A stretch of DNA of 40,908 nucleotides from a virus (Duplodnaviria; Caudoviricetes), in the IMG/VR virus record IMGVR_UViG_3300031949_000090, positions 1-40,908 of that record. One strand, given 5' to 3'. Shown piece by piece: positions 277 through 23,645 of the stretch (position 1 is the stretch's first letter; each line of letters opens with the position of its first letter). The notes below the pieces were generated by a model. That model was not told the DNA's origin. It saw nothing but the letters and a program-made list of their open reading frames with translations, and searched no databases. A program made the translations under genes and the position numbers.

Positions 277-1338
277 TCATCGATTCCCCCTGTTGTCCAG
301 CGGCGGGGGTTCGTAGCCTGCGGCTCGAGCTCTGGCCCGGATGTCCTCGGCGATCGTCTTGCGGCGCTGCTCGGAATCGCCGCGGAGCTGGAGGTCCTGG
401 AATCGCCGCTGGAGGGCGTTGCGGTCCTGTGTGCTCAGCATCGGATCGTTCAGGTCCATCTGGCCGACCTTGAGAACGGCCGGGCTGGCGAGCTGCTCGA
501 TGAAGGCGGCGGTGGACTTGCTGCAATTCGGATGGAAGGGGGGCTCGCTGGGGAGCTGGGTGATGGCGGGGAAGCGGGGGTGATTGCCGGAGAGAGAGAA
601 AACCTTCCCCACGTAAGCGGTGCAGAAGTTTTTGCTGATGCGGCCGAGGATGATGACCAGGTCGATGCCCTCTTCGTTCAGGCGTTCGTGGCGGGCGATG
701 GTGCTGGCCTCTCTGGCTCGGGTGTGAACGACCATCTTGGCGTACGAACCGGCGTCGAAGTCCATCGGATCTCCGTTCTTGTTGATCACGGTCACGACGT
801 TGCCGTTGTGGATTTTCTTGAGGCGTTCGCGGAGTTCGCGGATGGGCTGGGCGGGCTTGCCCTCGATGACGCCGCCGGCGATGAGGCGGTTGACCTCCTC
901 CACCTTCAGGCCGTTGTCGGCCATGGCGTGGAGGGTTTTTCCCAGGGCCTTTTGGGTGGAGTCGATGGAACGGGCGATGTCGGCGGCGGTGTCGCGGGCG
1001 ATGACCTCCACTGTGCGGGTGTCGATCAGCGCGAAGTTGGGCCGGAGGACGTCGTTGGCGAGGTCGGGCGGGATGCGCATAGCATCGATCATGCGCTGGG
1101 CGCCGAGGCGGCCATCGCGCTGGGCCTGCTGTAGGGCGGCGGCGGCGATCTGGTTGGATGTGGACTTGAGCTTTTGCAGCTCGCGCACGACCTGGGCGTA
1201 CTGGCTCTGGGCGCGGGCGCGGGTCCATTCGACGCTGGGTCCGCCGGGGGGCTGTTCGATCAGCACGCGCAGCTTCTTCGCCGCCTCCTGCCAGTAGGAG
1301 GCGAGGATGTCTTCGTAGCTGGGCGGGCGTTTAGCCAT
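277..1338 (-). CDS. Phage minor capsid / head morphogenesis protein (Mu gpF / SPP1 gp7-like role)
   Basis: Motifs YAKMVVHTRAREA, C..YVGKVFS, PPFHPNC typical of minor capsid proteins. Confidence 0.85.
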   Translation of the reverse strand: MAKRPPSYEDILASYWQEAAKKLRVLIEQPPGGPSVEWTRARAQSQYAQVVRELQKLKSTSNQIAAAALQQAQRDGRLGAQRMIDAMRIPPDLANDVLRPNFALIDTRTVEVIARDTAADIARSIDSTQKALGKTLHAMADNGLKVEEVNRLIAGGVIEGKPAQPIRELRERLKKIHNGNVVTVINKNGDPMDFDAGSYAKMVVHTRAREASTIARHERLNEEGIDLVIILGRISKNFCTAYVGKVFSLSGNHPRFPAITQLPSEPPFHPNCSKSTAAFIEQLASPAVLKVGQMDLNDPMLSTQDRNALQRRFQDLQLRGDSEQRRKTIAEDIRARARAAGYEPPPLDNRGNR

Positions 1339-1380
1339 TGCGGGAGTTGCCAGTTGCCAGTTGGTAGTTGCCAGCGGAGA

Positions 1381-1818
1381 TCATCTTCCCAGCTTCCTGT
1401 TGATTTCGTCCTGGATGAACTCGGGGAACTTGTCCTTCTCGGCGATGACGGCGGTTTCGAGGTACTTCGCCTGGCCTTGCTCGTGGGTGTAGTCCAGTCG
1501 CTCGTGCTGGACGGCGGCGTATTCGGCGTTGAAGCCGCTCACCTGTTCGACCTTGTCGCCCGTGCCGACCGGCGGTTCGACGGTGGCGGAGTTCTTGAGG
1601 AATCCGGGCTGGGCGGTCTTGGCGAACTTGCGGGCCGGAGGCGGGCCTTTGACCATGTATCCCTTGTTCACCGGGGCGAGGTCGGCGGCCACGCCGATGA
1701 GGTGGCGGGAGAACTTGTTGACTGCTTCGGGGACGGCCTGGTCGGCGATGATTCGTTCGGCCTCGGAGAGGCCGGCGAGGAAGGAGGAGATGTCGGTGCT
1801 TGCGCTCATGAGTTGCAA
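1381..1818 (-). CDS. HK97 gp10-like tail completion/neck protein
   Basis: LAPV..G.L..S...GFNAEYAAVQHE...GQAKYLE pattern. Confidence 0.8.
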   Translation of the reverse strand: MQLMSASTDISSFLAGLSEAERIIADQAVPEAVNKFSRHLIGVAADLAPVNKGYMVKGPPPARKFAKTAQPGFLKNSATVEPPVGTGDKVEQVSGFNAEYAAVQHERLDYTHEQGQAKYLETAVIAEKDKFPEFIQDEINRKLGR

Positions 1819-1857
1819 TCCGTTGCAAGGCGGCGATCAGCTTTCAGCGGTCAGCTT

Positions 1858-2286
1858 TCAGCTATCGGCTGCGGCCTCCTGTTCCTGGCGGCGGGAGATG
1901 CTCTTGAGCATCTCGATCACCGCGTTGGCCTCTTTAAAATTGCAGTCCTCGGGTCGGCCGCAGCGGCCCTTGGTGACCCGGCGGATCAGGCCGGCCATGT
2001 CGTAGTTGTCCACCGCCGCGGCGAGTTCGGCGATCTTGTGGAGCTGCCTCGCGTCCGCGTCGATGCCGCGTCGAAAGGTCTTCGATCGCCAGTAATCGGC
2101 CGGCTGGCCGAGGTGGCGGAAGCCTCGGTGTTCGAGGTGGGCCATGACGTCCTCGAAGGATTTGTTGGTGAGGTCCTTTGACGATTTCACGCCGGCGATG
2201 TTGGCGAGGATCTCGCGGTAGTCGGCCTCGTCCAGGCCGAGCTGGCGGCGGGCGGCGTGGATGAGGGTGAGTTGTTGGTTGGTCAT
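1858..2286 (-). CDS. gemA: GemA/Gp16 family regulatory protein (DUF1018)
   Basis: IHAARRQLGLDEADYREIL..GVKSSKDL..RGF and C-terminal EANAVIEMLK; hallmark of transposable phages. Confidence 0.9.
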   Translation of the reverse strand: MTNQQLTLIHAARRQLGLDEADYREILANIAGVKSSKDLTNKSFEDVMAHLEHRGFRHLGQPADYWRSKTFRRGIDADARQLHKIAELAAAVDNYDMAGLIRRVTKGRCGRPEDCNFKEANAVIEMLKSISRRQEQEAAADS

Positions 2287-5275: not shown

Positions 5276-6436
5276 TCATCCCGCCGCGGCGACTCTGGAC
5301 GTCATCCGCAGGCTCATATCCTTCTCCAGTTGCCCCGCCGCCCGCACGCCCAGGCGCTCGCGCTGCAGGTCCTCCAGCATCTCCAGCGTGATCGCCCGGC
5401 CGTCGGCGCCGGGCTTGCTCATCAGCAGCCCGACCAGGATCGCCACCGTCCGCAGCCCGCCCATCTTGGGCTTGTTGCTCAGTTCCTTCAGATACTGCTC
5501 GGCCTCGCCCGTCGCCCGAACCTGCATGCCGGCCAAAACCTTGCGGATGTCATCGACGTTGTGCAGGCCGGGACCACCATCCGACCGGCTGGCGGCATAC
5601 GTCAGATCCAGCCACCACTTCACCCGGCCGTAGATCTGCTCCACGCTGTCCCGATCGTTGCGGGCCGTCTCGATGTAGTTGGCGATGTCGGCCGTGCCGA
5701 TCCAGAGCATGGGACAGCCGGTCAGATCGTGCAGGTCTCGCAGCGCGTGCAGGCCCTCATCCTTCTGCCGGCCACAGAGCTTGTGCACCTCATCCACGAT
5801 GATCAACCGGCCGGAGTCCTTCAGCAGCGTCACGAGCTGCTCCTGGAGCTGATAGCTGGTCAGCTTCAATCCGGTGAGCCGGAGCTGCTTGGCCAGCGTG
5901 TCATACACGGCCAGCTTGCTCATCCCGGCCGTGCTGATGCGCATCAAGACGCTGCCGGGAATCTCTCCGCGAAGGAACTGCGCCGTCATCGTCTTGCCGA
6001 TGCCGCTGGGCCCGTGGACGATGTAGATGCCCGGCTCATTGTGCCGCATGGCCATCTTGGCCACGCCGATGATCTCCAGCGCCGTCGTCGTCTTGACGAA
6101 GCGATCGTCCTTCGGGGCCGACTCGCGCGCGAGCTGGATCTCCGTCCACTTGTCGATCTGGCGGATGCGGCTCTCCGTGTCGCCGGCATAGTTCCCGCTG
6201 AGCACCTGGCTCAGCGTGGAGGGCTTGATGCTCAGCGATCGCGCGGCCCATCCCTCGCTCTTGCCCAGGCGGGCCAGCAGCTCGCGAAAGCGGGTGATGA
6301 TTGCGGTGGTCAATTCCGGCGTCAGTTCCTGGTCATCGCGCAGCATCCGTGCATCTCCTAAAAGCCTGGCTTCCGTCTCCAGGCGCTTGGACCAATGTTC
6401 AGGCAACGGCTCGTTGGCCTGGCGTGGGCGCATCAT
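5276..6436 (-). CDS. MuB-like transposition ATPase (AAA+ with N-terminal HTH)
   Basis: Walker A GPSGIGKT, Walker B LIIVDEVH; directly downstream of MuA. Confidence 0.93.
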   Translation of the reverse strand: MMRPRQANEPLPEHWSKRLETEARLLGDARMLRDDQELTPELTTAIITRFRELLARLGKSEGWAARSLSIKPSTLSQVLSGNYAGDTESRIRQIDKWTEIQLARESAPKDDRFVKTTTALEIIGVAKMAMRHNEPGIYIVHGPSGIGKTMTAQFLRGEIPGSVLMRISTAGMSKLAVYDTLAKQLRLTGLKLTSYQLQEQLVTLLKDSGRLIIVDEVHKLCGRQKDEGLHALRDLHDLTGCPMLWIGTADIANYIETARNDRDSVEQIYGRVKWWLDLTYAASRSDGGPGLHNVDDIRKVLAGMQVRATGEAEQYLKELSNKPKMGGLRTVAILVGLLMSKPGADGRAITLEMLEDLQRERLGVRAAGQLEKDMSLRMTSRVAAAG

Positions 6437-8565
6437 CAGTCATCCTCCGCGAAAGCGGCCAAGGTCGGACTGATCGTTCTCTCCATATGCTCGCGCCCAC
6501 GCCCATGCCCGCGCCCGCGGGGGCTCATGCCCTCCGCCCCCGCGGCCCGGCGGAGCATCTGATGATCGTCATTTGACTGCCCCTCGAAGCCCGTTCGAAC
6601 CGGGCGTAAAGTGGGCGTCGGCGGCTCGGGAAGCGGGCTTTCGGCCGAGCGCCGGCGCGACTCGGCCAGGGCATCCTCCACCAGCAGCTCCGTGGGCGAA
6701 TCGATCCGCCGCATGCCCCGCGCCTGGACGGCGGCCAGGGCCTTGTTGTGCTCCTGCATCTTCCGATACGCCGCGCGGTACTGCGGCTCATCGGTGGTAT
6801 CGAAGATCTCCCGGCCGGTCATCTGCACCGTGCAGATGCGATGCTGGCCGGCGTAATGCCAGACCTGGCAGCAGGTGACATCGGCCGGGTCGTAGGCGAC
6901 GATCACCTTCTGCCCGAGCAGCGGGCGAAGGGCCGGATCGCCCCGGCCGTAGTTCCGGCCCGCGAAGGTGAGGCCGTTCTTGCCCACCTTCAGCCCGTCC
7001 TTGCCGCCGCCGGCGAAGCGCAGCAGGCACACATCCAGTGCCTCCATCGTCAGCAGGTTCTTCACCGTCAGGCACTGCTCGTAGATCTCATCGGGGCTGC
7101 GTCCGCCCATGCCGTCGCCGGTGTGCTCCTGGGCGTGATAGGCGCCGTCGAGCCACGCCGTCGCTTCGGCAACATAATCCTCGAACGTCGGCACGCGATT
7201 GGTCTTGAGCACATCCTTGAGCCGCTCGGGCTTGCGGTGGGTCGCCCCGCCGGTGTAGGTGGGGGTGAAGACGCCGAATTGTTCTTCGAACGTGCCGAAG
7301 AACGGCTCGATGCACTTGGCTTTGGGGTTGAACGGCCGGGCGTGGAGCTGCTTGATCCCGAGCAGGCCATAGACGCCGCGGAAGCGTTCCAGGTCGTTAT
7401 CAATGTGGATGCGTTGTTGCCGCTCCTTCTTGGTCTTGCCATCCCAGAACCACGCATCGTAGTCTTTTCCGTTGTCGGTGTAGGCGTGTTCCGGCCGGCA
7501 CATCTGGGCGCGGATGATGCCATCGCGCAGGGCCAGTAGGACGGTCGACGAATCCGGCTCGATGGGGCTGAACGCCCGGCCGATCAGCTTGCGGCTGCGG
7601 ATGTCCAGCCAGCCCGTGAGCCACGGCCGGATGATCTTGCCCTTGTAACTGACCAGCGTGTCGCAGATGTGGTGATCGCCGACCCAGAGGTCGTGCGTCC
7701 GCATGTCCCGCTCGATCGTCTGGCCATTCTCCGAGACGCGGATGCGGGTGAAATCCCGCAGGCAGGAAGCCGCGCACAGATCATCGAACGCCTTCTCGCC
7801 CTTCCGCGCCCGCGTCCACCGGCCAAGCTGCGTCTGCTTGAGCATCTGCGCATACCGCCGGGCCGAGCGGGCCGAGGGGATGGCCAGGCCCAGCTTGCGG
7901 GCCTCGGCCCGGGCCAGCCGGTAACACGCCGTTGGCGATGGCTCGCCCTCCTCCAGCATCCACTTCTCCAGCAGCGGCCAGAAATCGGCGAAGGGGGAAT
8001 CCTCGCCGCCCTTGGTGCCCGCCCGCCGGCCGTCCAGCAGTCCCTGGCAGCCGGCCCGTTCGAACTTCGCCGTCCAGCGATCGAGTGTCCTCGGCGCCAC
8101 GCCCGGATGTTTCACCAGGAACTCCGCCGCCGCCTCGTCTTTGCGCTGGGCCGCCGCCCGCGCCCGCATCTTCATCCACGCCAGGACGATCGCCAGCCGG
8201 CCCTGGGCGACGGACCGGCTGGGCTCGGGGACGGCGAGCCAGTCGAATTTCGCGGCCCGCTCTTCCGGTGTGCCGGCGAAGTTCTTCAGCCGCGGATCGG
8301 CGTGTTCGGAGACCTGCCAGACGTCCAGGCCGAACCGATCGGCCTTCCGCGCCAGCGCCCGATCGGACAGATCGCCCAGGCATTTATTCCGCATCGCCCC
8401 CACTGTGATCCCCGCCAGGCGGGCGGCATCGTCGATCCAGATCCAGCGGCAGCCGTTGGAGTAGTCGGCGACCTCGGCGCCCGCGCCCGCGCCCAGACGC
8501 ATCCGGGGGAAAGCAACCGCAGAGGCCGCAGAGATCGCAGAGGTTGGGGGGAGGTCATTGGTCAT
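6436..8565 (-). CDS. MuA-like DDE transposase
   Basis: WVGDH, YTDNGKDY, PKAKCIEPFF catalytic pattern; HTH N-terminus; C-terminal V.YDP.D Mu transposase domain. Confidence 0.95.
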   Translation of the reverse strand: MTNDLPPTSAISAASAVAFPRMRLGAGAGAEVADYSNGCRWIWIDDAARLAGITVGAMRNKCLGDLSDRALARKADRFGLDVWQVSEHADPRLKNFAGTPEERAAKFDWLAVPEPSRSVAQGRLAIVLAWMKMRARAAAQRKDEAAAEFLVKHPGVAPRTLDRWTAKFERAGCQGLLDGRRAGTKGGEDSPFADFWPLLEKWMLEEGEPSPTACYRLARAEARKLGLAIPSARSARRYAQMLKQTQLGRWTRARKGEKAFDDLCAASCLRDFTRIRVSENGQTIERDMRTHDLWVGDHHICDTLVSYKGKIIRPWLTGWLDIRSRKLIGRAFSPIEPDSSTVLLALRDGIIRAQMCRPEHAYTDNGKDYDAWFWDGKTKKERQQRIHIDNDLERFRGVYGLLGIKQLHARPFNPKAKCIEPFFGTFEEQFGVFTPTYTGGATHRKPERLKDVLKTNRVPTFEDYVAEATAWLDGAYHAQEHTGDGMGGRSPDEIYEQCLTVKNLLTMEALDVCLLRFAGGGKDGLKVGKNGLTFAGRNYGRGDPALRPLLGQKVIVAYDPADVTCCQVWHYAGQHRICTVQMTGREIFDTTDEPQYRAAYRKMQEHNKALAAVQARGMRRIDSPTELLVEDALAESRRRSAESPLPEPPTPTLRPVRTGFEGQSNDDHQMLRRAAGAEGMSPRGRGHGRGREHMERTISPTLAAFAEDD

Positions 8566-13958: not shown

Positions 13959-14205
13959 CGTTCGCTCCTTTGAGTCTGCGTTGCCTCTCCGCTTCGCCGG
14001 CCGCGATGATGGCCATGAACTCCGCCGCCGTCTCTCCGGGCTGGGCGATGTACAGATCCAGCAGCTTGCCGTGGGTGCGATACCACCAATCGTGAAATCG
14101 GTTGGGGTGTACGTGCAGGGCATCCGCCGCCCGCTGCGTGTCGAACAGATAATCCGCGCGGCGATCCTCCGTGATCGAGCCGATTCTTCGCTCGATCGAT
14201 CCCAT
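13939..14205 (-). CDS. Hypothetical protein
   Basis: GAGGA RBS before ATG 14205. Confidence 0.5.
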   Translation of the reverse strand: MGSIERRIGSITEDRRADYLFDTQRAADALHVHPNRFHDWWYRTHGKLLDLYIAQPGETAAEFMAIIAAGEAERQRRLKGANGEQAKR

Positions 14206-14324
14206 GAAAGTCCTCAATTAACGATGCCGTTAGTTCACCCCCCAGATGGTCGGCGACGCCGCTGCATCCGCCGGATAGGCTGCTCAGGATGGATGCTCGA
14301 TTGCCCATAACCTTCGCGTTGGAT

Positions 14325-14627
14325 TCAGCCGGCCTTGCGGCGGCGGTGCTCGGAAAAGCCCGCGGGGCGGGCGGCGGGATTCTCTTCCCGCCGCCGCCCT
14401 CGCGTGGCCGTCAGAAGTTCACGCTCTACGTCTTCGCGCTCGATGCCCAAAGCCCGCGCCAGCCGAACGACGTTGTGGCCGCGGATGTTGGGCCTCGCCT
14501 GTCCAAGCCACACGCGGAGGGTCCAGTAGGAGATGCCCGCGTTGCGGCAGAATTCAGACTGATCCACGCCGAGATTCTCGATCTCTCGTTTGAGCCATTG
14601 ACCGAAATGGACAGTTTCGACCGCCAT
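14325..14627 (-). CDS. Cro/Ner-role XRE HTH regulator, first early gene
   Basis: HFGQWLKREIENLGVDQSEFCRNAGISYWTLRVW; divergent from the repressor. Confidence 0.85.
   Translation of the reverse strand: MAVETVHFGQWLKREIENLGVDQSEFCRNAGISYWTLRVWLGQARPNIRGHNVVRLARALGIEREDVERELLTATRGRRREENPAARPAGFSEHRRRKAG
14354..14409 (-). terminator. Intrinsic terminator/attenuator-like hairpin within the 3' end of the cro-like gene
   Basis: GCCACGCGAGGGCGGCGGCGGGA-AGAGAA-TCCCGCCGCCCGCCCCGCGGGC followed by TTTT. Confidence 0.6.
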
Positions 14628-14636
14628 GATGCACCG

Positions 14637-14665
14637 AGGGTAATATCGCCCATTAGCGTTGTCAA
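14637..14665 (-). promoter_or_regulatory. Early promoter (sigma70-type)
   Basis: TTGACA-N17-TACCCT, 9 nt before the cro ATG. Confidence 0.75.
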
Positions 14666-14733
14666 GCGTTAATTGGTGATTTTTATTTGCGGCGATTGTC
14701 AGGGAGAGGTAACGTGCGTCCGGTCCGCCCTTT

Positions 14734-15498
14734 ATGGAACAAAGGCACTTCGGAAAATTTCTGCGCCAGGCGGTGGAACGATCGGGTATGCGGAAGAAAG
14801 ATGCCGCCGCCAAGATCGGCGTAGAGGCTGTAACCCTGCGCGCCTGGTTCAACAGCGCAGCGCCGAATATAAAGCCGGAAAGCCGCGTGAATCTTGCGAA
14901 ATTCCTCGGCATTTCTCCGGCGGATTTGGAGGAGCGGCTTCGGCAAGCGATGCTGCACGATCCGGCGACGCAGAAGCGCTGGGCCGCACAGGAGCGGGCG
15001 GTGCGAGAGGGCGGCCACAGCATTCACGATCAGGTCGCCGCGGGGGCTCCGATCGGCGAGGACGAAGAGGAGGAGCCTGACCGCAGCGTGGAGCCGTACA
15101 GCGAGATGAAGGTCCCGGAGATCCCGCTGTTCGAGCTGTCCCTGGCCGCCGGGCCGTGGGTGGATGTGGAGGGCGTGGGCCACCGCGAGGACCTGCTGGT
15201 TTTGGAAGAGCCGCGCTTCCGCGTGCGACTGGCCGGCGATTCAATGCAGCCGCGCTATCGCAGTGGGGCCGTGGTCGAGTTCCGCACGATCATGCCGGAT
15301 GACATCGAGGTGGGAAAGGATTATTATGTGCAAAAGAGCGACGGGACGGCCACGTTCAAGCGGGTGGCCGGTATGGATCAGGAGGGCCTGACGCTGGCGG
15401 CGATCAACAAGCGCAAGTACCCCAAGCCGTTGCGGGTGGTCTGGCAGGAGTTCGCCCGCGCGGCCCGGGCGGTGGCGATTGTGGAACTGATCGACTGA
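14734..15498 (+). CDS. CI-like repressor (XRE HTH plus S24 peptidase)
   Basis: N-terminal HTH; LAAG cleavage site, GDSMQP and ATFKR catalytic Ser/Lys. Confidence 0.92.
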   Translation: MEQRHFGKFLRQAVERSGMRKKDAAAKIGVEAVTLRAWFNSAAPNIKPESRVNLAKFLGISPADLEERLRQAMLHDPATQKRWAAQERAVREGGHSIHDQVAAGAPIGEDEEEEPDRSVEPYSEMKVPEIPLFELSLAAGPWVDVEGVGHREDLLVLEEPRFRVRLAGDSMQPRYRSGAVVEFRTIMPDDIEVGKDYYVQKSDGTATFKRVAGMDQEGLTLAAINKRKYPKPLRVVWQEFARAARAVAIVELID

Positions 15499-15510
15499 GC
15501 ACAGGAGGCC

Positions 15511-16350
15511 GTGATGATTCGGTGTGCCGTGATCGTGCTGATGGGTTGCGCCGTTTGTATGGCGCAAGTCGGGACCGAGGAGGCGTACGAGCGGCTGCGG
15601 CGGCGACAAGCCGAGCGAGAGGCACGGGGGGAAATGCCGACGACACGGCCCGCTCCCCGACAGAAAGAGGCTCCGGGGCCGCCGCCGCCAGCGGCGCCAA
15701 CGCCGGCGCCGGCAGAGCCGACAGACACTGGGATCGGCATCTTCCCGGTTGCCGATGGACTTGTGCGCGTTCACTATTTGTCGAAGCTGGTTTATTTGGG
15801 AGCCCGCACTGAACCGTACTACGGATTCATCTCCGCGAGCTATCGCGATTCCGGCGGCGTCCAGGACTCGATCGCCGGCTTCTTCCGCGTCTCCGGCAAG
15901 CCGGAGAAACTCGATATTCGAACGACCGACGAGCGCATCTTGACCATCGTCGAATCGCCTTCGGTTGGCCAGGGCTTTTCCTTCCTGAATGAAGGCGAAG
16001 TGATCGTCGAAATTCGGTTGGCCAGTGTTGTAGCGAAGATTCCCATACGGGTTGTTCGCCTGCCGTTTAGCGAGGGCGACTCCACGGATCAGATCGTGGA
16101 GCTGATCGGGCTGCCGGATGGCGTAAAGCAGGTAACCGTGTCCTGGCCAAAGACGAAACAGGTTGATGAAATCACCTACATGCCCGATGCCGCACAGCGG
16201 GTTGCCCACGCCCAGCATTGGCGATGGAAAAGTCATCCGGGATTGGTCGTCGCGATTGTTGACGGGAAAATTCGGACGATCAGAACGAGCCCGGAGCGAG
16301 ATATTCACGCCTGGGTTGCCGACGAGATGCGATGGATACGAGGCCAATGA
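15511..16350 (+). CDS. Secreted/periplasmic hypothetical protein co-transcribed with the repressor
   Basis: AGGAGG RBS; signal-peptide-like N-terminus; Pro-rich PTTRPAP linker. Confidence 0.75.
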   Translation: MMIRCAVIVLMGCAVCMAQVGTEEAYERLRRRQAEREARGEMPTTRPAPRQKEAPGPPPPAAPTPAPAEPTDTGIGIFPVADGLVRVHYLSKLVYLGARTEPYYGFISASYRDSGGVQDSIAGFFRVSGKPEKLDIRTTDERILTIVESPSVGQGFSFLNEGEVIVEIRLASVVAKIPIRVVRLPFSEGDSTDQIVELIGLPDGVKQVTVSWPKTKQVDEITYMPDAAQRVAHAQHWRWKSHPGLVVAIVDGKIRTIRTSPERDIHAWVADEMRWIRGQ

Positions 16351-16369
16351 TTTTTTCTGATGTTGGCGC

Positions 16370-16397
16370 TTGACATCGCCGAAGAGGTCGCTAGCGT
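16370..16397 (+). promoter_or_regulatory. Sigma70-type promoter
   Basis: TTGACA-N16-TAGCGT. Confidence 0.6.
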
Positions 16398-16402
16398 AAG
16401 AA

Positions 16403-16525
16403 GGATCGTGGTGGCTTGGCCGTCAGAAGCGTAGCCGCCGCGAGAGGAAAAAATCGAAGTCAACAAGCCCGCGGGGACCCTCGTCATAAGAGACAGTCGG
16501 TCTGCGCGGGCGTTGTCATTTTTGA
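16403..16525 (+). ncRNA. Candidate ~120-nt two-hairpin small RNA
   Basis: Promoter upstream; 11-bp stem 16406-16416/16433-16443 with 16-nt loop; second stem 16463-16516 followed by a T-rich tract. Confidence 0.5.
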
Positions 16526-16813
16526 TTTTAGAGTTTTGATTTTTGATTGCAAAATCGAAAATCGGAAATCGGAAATCGAAAATCCAATTCCCGCCGCAGA
16601 CCGGCCCTACGGAAGGGTCCGGCGTGATGGAGCACGAAGAGGCGAGGCACGAAGGCACGAAGGCAGCAGGCACGAAGGGTGCGCTGGTGTCAGTGGCCAG
16701 TTGCCAGTTGCCAGTTGCCAGGGCGACGGCGGGGTCGCTGCGCCGGGCCCCTCGCATCATCGGCCGGGACGGCCGGGAGCTGCACTTCGACCCGCAGCGG
16801 TTCCTGGAGCTGG

Positions 16814-17203
16814 TCAAGGCTGATTCAGACGCGACTCGGCGATCAGAAGCCCATCGTGGACCAGACACACCAGCATTGGCCGAGCCATTAAACTCCGGGC
16901 CAGGACTGCGAGCTGCGATTCATCGGCACTGTCGATCGCATCCCCCATCATGTGCAGCGCCATCCGGCAGTAAGTCACCTGTTCCGGATCGGCGTTCTCA
17001 CAAATCCAGTGGCGGAAAGCGGCGTCGTTGCGGATCTCCTGAACTGCTGACCGAGTTTGTCGAGCGCCAGTCTTCGTCGGAACAAACGACGGCGAAAGCG
17101 CATCGGCGAACCGCCAAAGCACCTGGGGGAAAGCGGCCATCCGCAGGCCCTGGATCACGCGCTGCATCTGGCTCCGCACGTCGGGAGAGGGGGAATCGCT
17201 CAT
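16814..17203 (-). CDS. Counter-oriented hypothetical protein
   Basis: Helical composition; upstream 42-bp block duplicated in front of 17272-17658. Confidence 0.6.
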   Translation of the reverse strand: MSDSPSPDVRSQMQRVIQGLRMAAFPQVLWRFADALSPSFVPTKTGARQTRSAVQEIRNDAAFRHWICENADPEQVTYCRMALHMMGDAIDSADESQLAVLARSLMARPMLVCLVHDGLLIAESRLNQP

Positions 17204-17271
17204 GAGTGCATTCTCCCCGATCCGGGCCATCAATCAAACGCGCCGCGGCGGAAGGGGGGCGGCGATGATCG

Positions 17272-17658
17272 TCACTCCAACTCCCCCACGTGCCTGGCCA
17301 TCATCTCAAGAGCTGTGCGAACCTGGTCGATCGCTGCTGGCGCTGATGCGAGATGAGTCCGAAGCGAACGCACCTCGTCGTCGGGAGCTGAGAGCGCTAC
17401 TGAGTGGTGGAACTGGAAGCAGTGCAGAATCAGCCGCACGTCTTCAAGCGTGGCACGCTCGCTGGCGAAGTATCGAAGCTCGGGATCATCGACTAATTGA
17501 TCTAGTTTCGCGAGTAACAGCAGCGGACTGGCAGGCCGCGTTGGTTCGAGCTCGATCAGCCGCTGAACGGCGTATTCCAGCGTCGCTGGCAGGACGGATC
17601 GGCAAAGCTGCAAGATGCGCGTGGCGCATTCTCCGCGGATGTCAGGGGGTGTGCTCAT
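17272..17658 (-). CDS. Counter-oriented hypothetical protein
   Basis: Leu-rich helical composition; shared upstream TTGATT-N16-GAGAAT / GGGGAG block. Confidence 0.6.
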   Translation of the reverse strand: MSTPPDIRGECATRILQLCRSVLPATLEYAVQRLIELEPTRPASPLLLLAKLDQLVDDPELRYFASERATLEDVRLILHCFQFHHSVALSAPDDEVRSLRTHLASAPAAIDQVRTALEMMARHVGELE

Positions 17659-17973: not shown

Positions 17974-18005
17974 GGCGGCTGATCCGCGCAGCCGCCGCGT
18001 TTTTC
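17974..18005 (+). terminator. Terminator-like hairpin upstream of the lysis genes
   Basis: GGCGGCTG-ATCCGCG-CAGCCGCC then GCGTTTTT. Confidence 0.45.
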
Positions 18006-22166: not shown

Positions 22167-23645
22167 ATGATCTGGGTCAATGAACAAGTCGCATCGTTCG
22201 GTCGCAGCGTGGGGGCCGCGCCGCGCTACCTGAGCGAGGAGCATCAGCTCGCCTGGCAGCGGCTGCGCATGGCCCGCATGCTGTTCGAGGGTCGGCATCG
22301 ACAATTCTTCTGGGATGAGGCGCGCACGCAGTTCGACTATCCGATCACCCGCGTGGGCGATCGCCAGTGCCGTCTGTATCTCACCGTGAACCTCCTTCGG
22401 CTGGTGAGCGTGAAGACGGCCGATCTGCTGTTCGGGGCCAAGGCCAAGCTGGATGCGCCGACCGTGCCCCAAACCGATGCCCTGGACCTGCTGGCCCGAC
22501 GCTCCAAGATCCACAGCCGGTTCCACACGGCCGTCGTCCAGGCGTCCTGGGCGGGCGGGAGCTACCTGCTCGGCACGACCTACCGCGGCGAGGGGTATCT
22601 GGACAACGTCGAGCCGGATGACATCTATCCACTGGGCCAGCGCGGGCCGGATGACCAGTATGAAAGGTATGTTCGCTACGCCACGGCCAACATCGGCACC
22701 GAGCAATCCCCGCTGATCGTGCTGCTGGAGACGAACTACGAGCCGGGTAGGATCGCCCGCAAGCTCTACCAACTCCAGGGGGACAAGCGGCAGAAGGAAT
22801 TGAACCTCGACCAGTGGCCGCACTGGTCGGCGGCGCAGGGCGGCGTACCGGCCAATGACGTGCGCACCGGCGTCGGCGACAACGTCATCACCTACATCCC
22901 CAACGAATGCGGCGGCAACCTGGGGCTGAGCGACTATGACGGGATCATCGAGGTTCAGGACACGGTCAACGCCAAGTTCGCGCAGGTGGCCCGCGTGCTC
23001 ATGAAACACAGCGATCCCAAGCTGGCCATGCCGGAGACGGCGGCGGATGAGAAGGGGAATGTGCGGGCGGACCACGATCTGTTCTTCTTCCGCACGAAGG
23101 ATGAGATGCCCACCTACATCACCTGGTCGGCGGAGCTGTCGGCCGCGATGCAGGACCGGGAGGCGGCGATCGACGCCTTTTGCGTCGCCAGCGAGATGAG
23201 CCAGATCATCCTGGGAATCAAGAAGGGCGCCGCCCCGGTGGCGGCGCGAACGCTACGGCTGGAGGCGACCAACAGCCTGGCCAAGGCGGGCCGGAAGGCC
23301 CCCAACATCGAGCCGGCCATCGCCCGCGCCGTCGAGATCGCCCAGCGTCTGGATCAGACCACCGCCCTGCGTCGCAGCTACCCGGTCGATCCGATCGGCG
23401 TGGAGATGCGCGATGGGCTGCCGGTGGATGAGCTGGACGTGGCCCAGACCGTCTCGACGTACCGCGCGGCGGGCGTGATGAGCGTTGAGGACGCCGTGGA
23501 GCGGCGCAAGGAAGATCCCGACTCGGCCTTCACCGAGGTGCAGCGGATCAAGGCCGAGCAGGCGGCCAGCGCCCCGCCGATCTTCGGGCCGTTCACGGAA
23601 CAGCCTGAAGAAACGCCGCCCGCGACGGAGCCGGCCGCGGCCTGA
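22167..23645 (+). CDS. Portal protein (SPP1/A118-like)
   Basis: NLLRLVSVKTADLLFG, YIPN...GLSDY, YITW; position after terminase. Confidence 0.85.
   Translation: MIWVNEQVASFGRSVGAAPRYLSEEHQLAWQRLRMARMLFEGRHRQFFWDEARTQFDYPITRVGDRQCRLYLTVNLLRLVSVKTADLLFGAKAKLDAPTVPQTDALDLLARRSKIHSRFHTAVVQASWAGGSYLLGTTYRGEGYLDNVEPDDIYPLGQRGPDDQYERYVRYATANIGTEQSPLIVLLETNYEPGRIARKLYQLQGDKRQKELNLDQWPHWSAAQGGVPANDVRTGVGDNVITYIPNECGGNLGLSDYDGIIEVQDTVNAKFAQVARVLMKHSDPKLAMPETAADEKGNVRADHDLFFFRTKDEMPTYITWSAELSAAMQDREAAIDAFCVASEMSQIILGIKKGAAPVAARTLRLEATNSLAKAGRKAPNIEPAIARAVEIAQRLDQTTALRRSYPVDPIGVEMRDGLPVDELDVAQTVSTYRAAGVMSVEDAVERRKEDPDSAFTEVQRIKAEQAASAPPIFGPFTEQPEETPPATEPAAA

What the first reader, a model, noticed from the sequence alone, without database searches (positions are those of the whole stretch)
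14354..16525. Candidate trans-acting sRNA targeting an attenuator at the start of the transposase operon
Seen: the loop of hairpin 1 of the predicted sRNA (TGGCCGTCAGAAG, 16417-16429) is identical to plus-strand 14405-14417, and AAGCCCGCGGGG (16465-16476) is identical to 14356-14367. Both are therefore complementary to the minus-strand early mRNA, at the 5' base and at the 3' arm plus U-tract of a terminator-like hairpin inside the cro 3' end. Established: P1 C4 and P4 CI are short phage RNAs that pair at two sites to control early transcription. Inference: an RNA switch (antiterminator or terminator stabiliser) gating MuA/MuB expression; I do not know of one in transposable phages. Caveat: the second match is within a stem and may partly reflect generic terminator sequence.
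Basis: partly seen in the sequence, partly recalled or inferred. Interest (0 to 1): 0.85.

Follow-up and report, generated by a model that had tools for sequence, protein, structure and literature searches.

The report
Phage RNA switch at early terminator
A Mu-like phage encodes a predicted small RNA whose two short sites match a predicted transcription stop signal in its first early gene, the match co-varies in ten related phages, and the RNA likely decides whether transcription runs on into the transposase genes.

Summary
Both matches are real and not chance (0 of 1000 and 0 of 200 shuffles). The window is a whole Mu-like phage with relatives in Phycisphaerae. The same layout (TTGAC promoter after the repressor, structured RNA with sites a then b; early-strand hairpin flanked by a' and b', then a U-rich tail) occurs in 10 phages, with looser two- or three-site versions in 5-6 more. 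Site a changes completely between phages yet keeps matching its own target. In 10 of 10, a' forms the bottom 2-5 bp of the hairpin. The RNA is probably about 200 nt, not 120: a downstream segment frees the buried site b. No Rfam family matches, C4 and IsrK included; unlike C4 and CI it is a separate gene on the opposite strand. Best reading: an RNA antiterminator at a tR1-like terminator after cro (0.42). Rivals: trans terminator/second immunity (0.27), reverse control of late transcription (0.15). No expression data. New variant of phage antisense control; not found in print in my searches.

The parts
16370..16397 (+). Predicted sigma-70-type promoter of the RNA (TTGACA, 16 nt, TAGCGT)
   Evidence: One of only two TTGAC[AT]-N16-18-NANNNT sites in the 40.9 kb window; TTGAC[AT] stands at the same place in 12 of 12 members printed and in L258, L266, L273
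16404..16612 (+). Predicted regulatory RNA, long form; ends inferred, not mapped
   Evidence: Fold z -5.4 for 16403-16526, z -6.9 for 16404-16612 (inflated by the heptamer hairpin); no Rfam match
16417..16429 (+). Site a, specificity site in the loop of hairpin 1 (16406-16443)
   Evidence: opening cost 4.2 kcal/mol; full or full-1 match to a foreign target in 3 of 132 cells
16465..16476 (+). Site b, 5' arm of hairpin 2; complementary to the 3' arm and first two U of the early hairpin
   Evidence: opening cost 22 kcal/mol in the short form, 3.7 in the long form
16498..16515 (+). Anti-b strand: pairs with b (short form) or with the downstream segment (long form)
   Evidence: (inverted repeat I1)
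16518..16582 (+). Heptamer-repeat hairpin (TTTTGAT / AATCGAA type) inserted in the RNA; L037 has a similar insertion at another place in its RNA
16590..16603 (+). Anti-anti-b segment that captures anti-b and frees b
   Evidence: real downstream sequence lowers the cost of opening b from 20.7 to 3.7 kcal/mol; 0 of 25 shuffles do as well
14405..14417 (-). Target site a'; its 5' 8 nt are unpaired, its 3' GGCC is the base of the hairpin's 5' arm
14354..14409 (-). Terminator-like hairpin (about -47 kcal/mol) with U4 tail, inside the 3' end of cro
   Evidence: model R1 finds this element only at phage loci
14356..14367 (-). Target site b': 3' arm of the hairpin plus two U
14325..14627 (-). cro/ner-like HTH gene, 100 aa, read through the hairpin; its one close relative is 80 aa
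14637..14665 (-). Predicted early promoter (TTGACA, 17 nt, TACCCT)
14734..15498 (+). CI-like repressor (HTH + peptidase S24)
5276..8565 (-). MuA-like transposase (6436-8565) and MuB-like ATPase (5276-6436), downstream in the early orientation
   Evidence: no sigma-70-like promoter found between them and the hairpin

Best explanation
A separately promoted, predicted RNA of about 200 nt carries two sites complementary to the two flanks of a predicted terminator in the first early gene, and likely acts as an RNA antiterminator that would let transcription run on towards the transposase genes. Shown: the complementarity, its covariation across phages, the promoter-like sites and the gene order. 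Predicted: by default the early transcript folds a long hairpin followed by 3-5 U and stops in or just after cro, like lambda tR1. The loop site a would catch the unpaired 5' part of a' on the nascent RNA, zip into the bottom 2-5 bp of the 5' arm, and pull the stem end 2-6 nt away from the U tract, so release fails. After read-through b would invade the freed 3' arm, paid for by the anti-b/anti-anti-b refold. Site a gives each phage its own key. Inferred purpose: a delay or dose gate on MuA/MuB in phages where no Mor/C activator was found. The pairing itself I put at about 0.9; the number below is for this direction.
For: Covariation: 10 phages with the same layout; own-target score 23 or more in 5 of 19 repressor-anchored loci against a maximum of 21.2 in 342 foreign pairs; of 5 new MuA-bearing loci found by the repressor alone, 3 clear and 1 probable. 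a' is the stem base in 10 of 10, blocking it retracts the stem 2-6 nt, tails hold 41 U in 80 nt against 17% background; L031 changes both strands of this base together. a-only binding to the nascent RNA is favourable in 9 of 9 computed (-6 to -15 kcal/mol). In L002, L009 and L259 the extra sites lie on the 5' side of the early hairpin, the geometry of engineered STAR antiterminators (10.1101/022772, passages). A duplex must reach within 11 nt of the RNA end to cause release (PMC3351154, passages), so a retracted stem should fail. Four transitions inside a cores are all G-U pairs for RNA(+)/mRNA(-).
Against: Site b is a near-perfect 5' arm with an A tract reaching 1-5 nt into the U tract: the geometry that triggers release in oligonucleotide assays, and b is predicted exposed in the long RNA. 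The promoter looks constitutive: no operator shared with the early promoter region (a weak test), which suits a lysogen-made repressor better. C4 and CI both repress. L046 has a poor tail (2 U of 8), and L044, L077, L009, L034 show no U tract after the early hairpins. The G-U count is small (4 of 5 transitions overall), and the seeds came from a scan that allowed only that type. 12 of the 19 loci show no pair (one, L047, has a truncated target zone), and two further ones (L015, L009) were missed by that rule. All structures are predictions.
Confidence: 0.42

Rival explanations
1. The RNA is a repressor and second immunity layer: a tethers it to the nascent early RNA and b replaces the imperfect cis 5' arm, making a perfect duplex up to the U tract and forcing release, which damps leaky transposase expression in lysogens and blocks homoimmune superinfection (P4 CI logic).
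For: b is perfectly complementary to the 3' arm plus 1-5 U in all 10 core members, while the cis stem base has bulges, mismatches or G-U pairs; oligonucleotide-mediated release has this geometry; b is freed in the long RNA; apparently constitutive promoter just after the repressor region; two prophages of one genome (L037, L041) share b but differ in a; in the window early release would also leave cro without a stop codon.
Against: The new members L258, L266, L273 already have good terminators on their own; the cis base pairing of a' is kept, even by compensatory change, which this model does not need; L002, L009, L259 have no site on the 3' arm.
Confidence: 0.27
2. The direction is reversed: the terminated early (cro) RNA is the effector and the right-hand RNA is the leader of the late operon, like lambda pR'; capture of b by the early RNA switches the leader fold and allows late transcription.
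For: No Mor/C family match in the window or 5 related phage records (records are classed incomplete); this promoter is the only strong one facing the late genes; b matches the very 3' end of a terminated early RNA; the b / anti-b / anti-anti-b switch sits on the right-hand RNA; in L002, L077, L034 a third site lies in the loop of the right-hand RNA's own terminator.
Against: In the core family the tail after hairpin 2 has few U runs (34 U of 72, scattered); opposite-strand genes and further terminator-like hairpins lie before the holin-like gene (window 16814-17658 and 17974-18004; L046 5695), which one pairing event cannot bypass; anti-anti-b is made only after read-through.
Confidence: 0.15
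3. The pairing acts after transcription: the RNA unzips the protective 3' hairpin of the cro transcript, or makes a duplex cut by RNase III, shortening the life of early RNA; or the two RNAs titrate each other.
For: Full b pairing covers U residues that are inside polymerase at the moment of decision; two-site complexes are stable, -4 to -30 kcal/mol net with the long forms; several looser members lack a U tract.
Against: No continuous duplex over 15 bp; the site order fits capture during transcription; in L046 the element lies upstream of the cro-like gene, where it protects no mRNA end.
Confidence: 0.12
4. The repeats are DNA-level protein sites, remnants of duplication, or chance.
For: Crossed repeat pairs of this size occur by chance in GC-rich DNA when position is not constrained; promoter-free scans reach scores of 23-25 in unrelated places.
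Against: Fixed position, reversed site order, non-palindromic sites that change together in each phage, conserved folds, and no signal in colinear or reverse-strand controls above 21.2.
Confidence: 0.04

Closest known systems
P1/P7 C4 antisense RNA (Rfam RF01695)
   Same: Short phage RNA pairing at two separate sites, one variable site giving phage specificity (PMC5320573, passages).
   Different: C4 is cut by RNase P from the transcript it regulates and masks a ribosome-binding site; here the RNA has its own promoter on the opposite strand 2 kb away, b' lies 7-150 nt before the next start and covers no SD, and the model gives no hit at the element.
P4 CI RNA with seqA/seqC
   Same: Multi-site pairing that sets premature termination of the early replication operon (PMC4825925, passages).
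   Different: CI is processed from the same leader and its sites flank it; here the target is an intrinsic-terminator-like hairpin in or after cro and the RNA is a separate gene. That CI termination is Rho-dependent is recalled, not checked.
Gifsy-1 IsrK (RF01394)
   Same: Prophage sRNA that raises read-through and downstream expression in trans.
   Different: IsrK acts on its own read-through transcript, mainly on translation; no model hit.
Engineered STARs and oligonucleotide-mediated termination
   Same: Trans RNA bound to the 5' arm blocks an intrinsic terminator (10.1101/022772); a strand bound next to the U tract releases the RNA (PMC3351154). Sites a and b have these two geometries.
   Different: Those are synthetic; here both geometries sit in one natural RNA with a conserved refolding switch.
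Lambda N at tR1; pR' leader RNA and StxS
   Same: Terminator straight after cro that gates early genes (recalled); a constitutive late promoter giving a short RNA that acts in trans (PMC7547250, listing and start of abstract only).
   Different: N and Q are proteins and processive; StxS targets were not examined. No such protein was identified here, but none was excluded.

Membership tests
C4 antisense RNA (RF01695) | Match to the covariance model | tested here: not met
   No hit at the element at E up to 10 or E up to 5; direct search of 4 records gave only two sub-threshold hits, the window's at 23237-23324
C4 antisense RNA (RF01695) | Three-stem fold closed by P1, RNase P processing from a precursor | tested here: inconclusive
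   The window RNA folds as separate hairpins without a closing stem; L015 and L031 could form one; processing is not testable
C4 antisense RNA (RF01695) | Two-site pairing with a variable specificity site | tested here: met
C4 antisense RNA (RF01695) | Site b masks the ribosome-binding site of icd/ant | tested here: not met
   b' ends 7-150 nt before the next start codon and covers no SD in the members listed
P4 CI RNA / seqA-seqC | RNA encoded within, and processed from, the regulated leader | tested here: not met
   Separate promoter, opposite strand, about 2 kb away
P4 CI RNA / seqA-seqC | Pairing causes premature termination and immunity | not testable with these tools
   Direction unresolved
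IsrK (RF01394) | Match to the covariance model | tested here: not met
   0 of 4 records
c4-a1b1 motif (Weinberg 2010) | Match to the motif alignment | not testable with these tools
   Listed without an Rfam accession in PMC2864571; supplements not read
Intrinsic terminator (target element) | GC-rich hairpin followed at once by a U-rich tail | tested here: met
   10 of 10 hairpins at -37 to -55 kcal/mol, 41 of 80 tail bases U; the simple scanner, which asks for 5 T in 8, did not list the window's site
Mu-like transposable phage | MuA and MuB divergent from the repressor, Mu gp27-like gene and terminase | tested here: met

The most novel reading that the evidence does not exclude
One RNA, two opposite jobs. 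The short form (b buried, net two-site binding about 0 kcal/mol in the window) uses only site a and antiterminates the early transposase operon; the long form made when late transcription reads through frees b, which completes a terminator in trans and shuts transposition off for packaging. This would be a natural two-state RNA timer standing in for N- and Mor/C-type proteins, with site a as a swappable key, and it accounts for all three conserved features (a over the stem base, b up to the U tract, the b-release switch).
Probability: 0.15. Interest if true: 0.93.

Novelty: new variant of a known kind. Interest (0 to 1): 0.78.

Why it matters
It is a new, sequence-defined RNA-RNA control family in transposable phages of Planctomycetota, a group with almost no described phage regulation. 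Whichever way it acts, it would be a natural trans-encoded RNA working directly on an intrinsic terminator, so far mainly an engineered device, and it sits on the operon whose leaky expression mutagenises the host. Ten natural pairs with different a sites form a ready orthogonal set, and one in vitro transcription assay can settle the direction.

Tried and rejected
Direct searches with the window's repressor (viral contigs) and Cro (genomes) found no useful relatives. BLASTN of the RNA found no homologue; members were found by layout. Pattern scans of collections gave only chance hits or known members. 80 MuA-anchored viral loci added no new member of this family. Unconstrained repeat-pair scans are swamped by chance. 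Translation-start masking as the general mechanism was rejected. A shared operator between the two promoters was not seen (diagonal mean 9.4 against 9.3). MAFFT alignments of the RNAs were too poor for a consensus fold; a six-row target alignment gave 8 of 16 pairs with a two-sided change but a covariation term near zero, so I do not count it as support. No RNA holder was listed for the region, which is no evidence either way. Earlier scan notes returned nothing. Taxonomy look-up of a family name gave nothing. L027, L096, L105, L242-L256 were examined and dropped as members; L013 is unresolved.

Full report
Context. The window is a whole 40.9 kb virus record. It has MuA (6436-8565) and MuB (5276-6436) on the minus strand, a cro-like HTH gene (14627-14325), a divergent CI-like repressor (14734-15498), a Mu gp27-like gene and a terminase. 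Named terminase relatives come from Phycisphaerae/Planctomycetota, so the host class is inferred.

The observation. Both identities hold exactly. Shuffling the RNA gave a two-site total of 25 nt in 0 of 1000 trials against the early zone and 0 of 200 against the whole window. Free scans for crossed repeat pairs of 22 nt or more find 32 in the window, so the lengths alone prove little. Only two sites in the window fit TTGAC[AT]-N16-18-NANNNT: one at 16370 in front of the RNA and one at 14665 in front of cro.

Conservation. Terminase-anchored loci showed the same layout in L041, L037, L046, L031, L040 and L015. In each, a promoter-like TTGAC follows the repressor region, the RNA has a then b, and the early strand has a', a long hairpin, b' and a U-rich tail. 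Site a is unrelated between phages but matches its own target; a full or full-minus-one match to a foreign target occurred in 3 of 132 cells for a and 4 of 132 for b, the latter among L037, L041, L046 (the diagonal is perfect by construction). In a fixed-rule test on 19 repressor-anchored loci, 5 scored 23-25.4 with their own early zone, while 342 foreign pairs peaked at 21.2 (90 of these cells are zero because 5 loci had no promoter match); colinear and reverse-strand controls peaked at 21.2 and 19.4. The rule was shaped after seeing the first members, it missed L015 and L009, and 12 loci showed no pair, so the system is patchy. As an out-of-sample test I fetched 14 new loci by the repressor domain alone: L258, L266 and L273 are clear members, L259 is a probable variant, 10 show no pair (2 of them have about 1 kb or less downstream). 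MuA was checked for 5 of the 14 and lies on the same contig in all 5: L258, L259, L264, L266, L273. L002, L044, L077, L034 and L009 form a looser group: L002, L044 and L077 have three sites in reversed order, and L002, L077, L034 end in a canonical terminator. A model of the target hit 2 of 150 Phycisphaerae genomes, only at prophage loci already known, so it is not a generic terminator. L037 and L041 lie in one genome and share b but not a.

Anatomy of the target. In 10 of 10 core members the 3' end of a' forms the bottom 2-5 bp of the stem by pairing with b'; blocking a' retracts the stem by 2-6 nt; 41 of 80 tail bases are U against 17% background; b covers the 3' arm and 1-5 U. The element begins within 10 nt after the stop of the first early gene in L041, L037, L040, L015 and L009, lies inside the ORF in the window, L002 and L034, and upstream of the cro-like gene in L046. 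The distance to the next start is 7-150 nt, so it is not a ribosome-site mask. No promoter-like site lies between it and MuA; two weak minus-strand terminator-like hits before MuA are at chance level. A single transcript to MuA is inferred.

Anatomy of the RNA. Site a is accessible (1.6-6.2 kcal/mol to open in the first seven core members; about 12 in L258). Site b is buried in hairpin 2 in the 120-nt form. In the 6 of 9 members where it costs 14-21 kcal/mol to open, the real downstream sequence lowers this to 3.6-7.4, better than 24 or 25 of 25 shuffles; the other 3 cost only 7-9 already and show no such effect (L266 is cut by its contig end). In the window the releasing segment is 16590-16603, beyond a heptamer-repeat hairpin, so the RNA is probably about 200 nt. 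Net two-site binding in the window is +0.2 kcal/mol for the short form and -17.8 for the long (loop-closure costs not included). The true 3' end is unknown.

Mechanism. Binding of a would remove the stem base next to the U tract, as STARs do by design (10.1101/022772, passages); release needs a duplex within 11 nt of the RNA end (PMC3351154, passages). In L002, L009 and L259 all extra sites are on the 5' side. I therefore commit to antitermination at a tR1-like site (0.42). Against it, b has exactly the geometry that forces release, the promoter shows no shared operator, and C4 and CI repress; a trans terminator giving second-layer immunity gets 0.27. Mor/C was found in 0 of 6 phage records, all classed incomplete, and this promoter faces the late genes, so a reversed model gets 0.15; opposite-strand genes and further terminators argue against it. 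RNA decay or titration gets 0.12, chance or DNA sites 0.04. Shown: sequence, covariation, gene order. Predicted: folds, energies, promoters, terminator. Inferred: expression, direction, purpose.

Comparison. Rfam gave no hit at gathering score in the window and nothing meaningful at relaxed E-values in the window or five relatives; C4 and IsrK models do not hit the element. It works like C4 and CI in using two sites with one variable key (PMC5320573, PMC4825925, PMC12197685: passages), but it fails their defining layout. The c4-a1b1 motif has no Rfam accession in PMC2864571 (passages); its supplements were not read and could bear on this. Searches for a small-RNA control in transposable phages or Planctomycete Mu-like prophages returned nothing describing it; PMC9936078 (passages) mentions only a possible attenuator in a Pseudomonas phage. 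The library lacks most subscription journals. Lambda N/tR1 and Mu Mor/C are recalled.

Verdict. A real, conserved, undescribed RNA-RNA switch family; direction unproven; interest 0.78.

Noticed in passing
L213 888-1087 and 4908-5027; also L216, L227, L206, L201, L228, L235, L186, L220: A second group of Mu-like phages carries an unrelated conserved promoter-plus-hairpin RNA about 4-5 kb upstream of MuA, with two short matches to a hydrophobic ORF just before a ner-like gene. Possibly a parallel invention or a type I antitoxin.
   Followed up: partly
window 277-2286, minus strand: Minor head and neck genes lie at the left end, at the tail of the early-oriented gene run, directly after a phrog_286 gene (GemA-like, label recalled), with no Mor gene.
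   Followed up: partly
window 17974-18004; L046 5695, L041 7295, L040 2600, L009 7215: Terminator-like hairpins stand just before the first late (holin-like) gene, so late genes seem to need an unidentified antiterminator or activator.
   Followed up: no
window 16814-17203 and 17272-17658, minus strand: Two protein-like ORFs lie on the opposite strand between the RNA and the late genes; only the second was scanned (PHROGs, no family).
   Followed up: no
window 14325-14417: cro runs 30 codons through the hairpin (100 aa against 80 aa in P0122), so release there would give a Cro mRNA without a stop codon; L002 and L034 also have the element inside an ORF.
   Followed up: partly
window 14204-14223 and 14667-14686: A 20-nt inverted pair with the core CGTTAATTG lies next to the early promoter and in front of the second early gene; possible operator.
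   Followed up: no
window 16518-16582; L037 4722-4795: Heptamer-repeat hairpins are inserted at different places inside the RNA without breaking the site pairing; such short tandem repeats are frequent in intergenic parts of the window.
   Followed up: partly
L013 6037-6098 and 3183-3275: Possible further two-site pair (15 and 11 nt), without a matching promoter or hairpin.
   Followed up: partly
L041 6803, L037 4710, L031 5900, L040 2225, L009 6830 (approximate): An AACTGA motif is shared in the linker before b in several RNAs but is absent in the window; unexplained.
   Followed up: no
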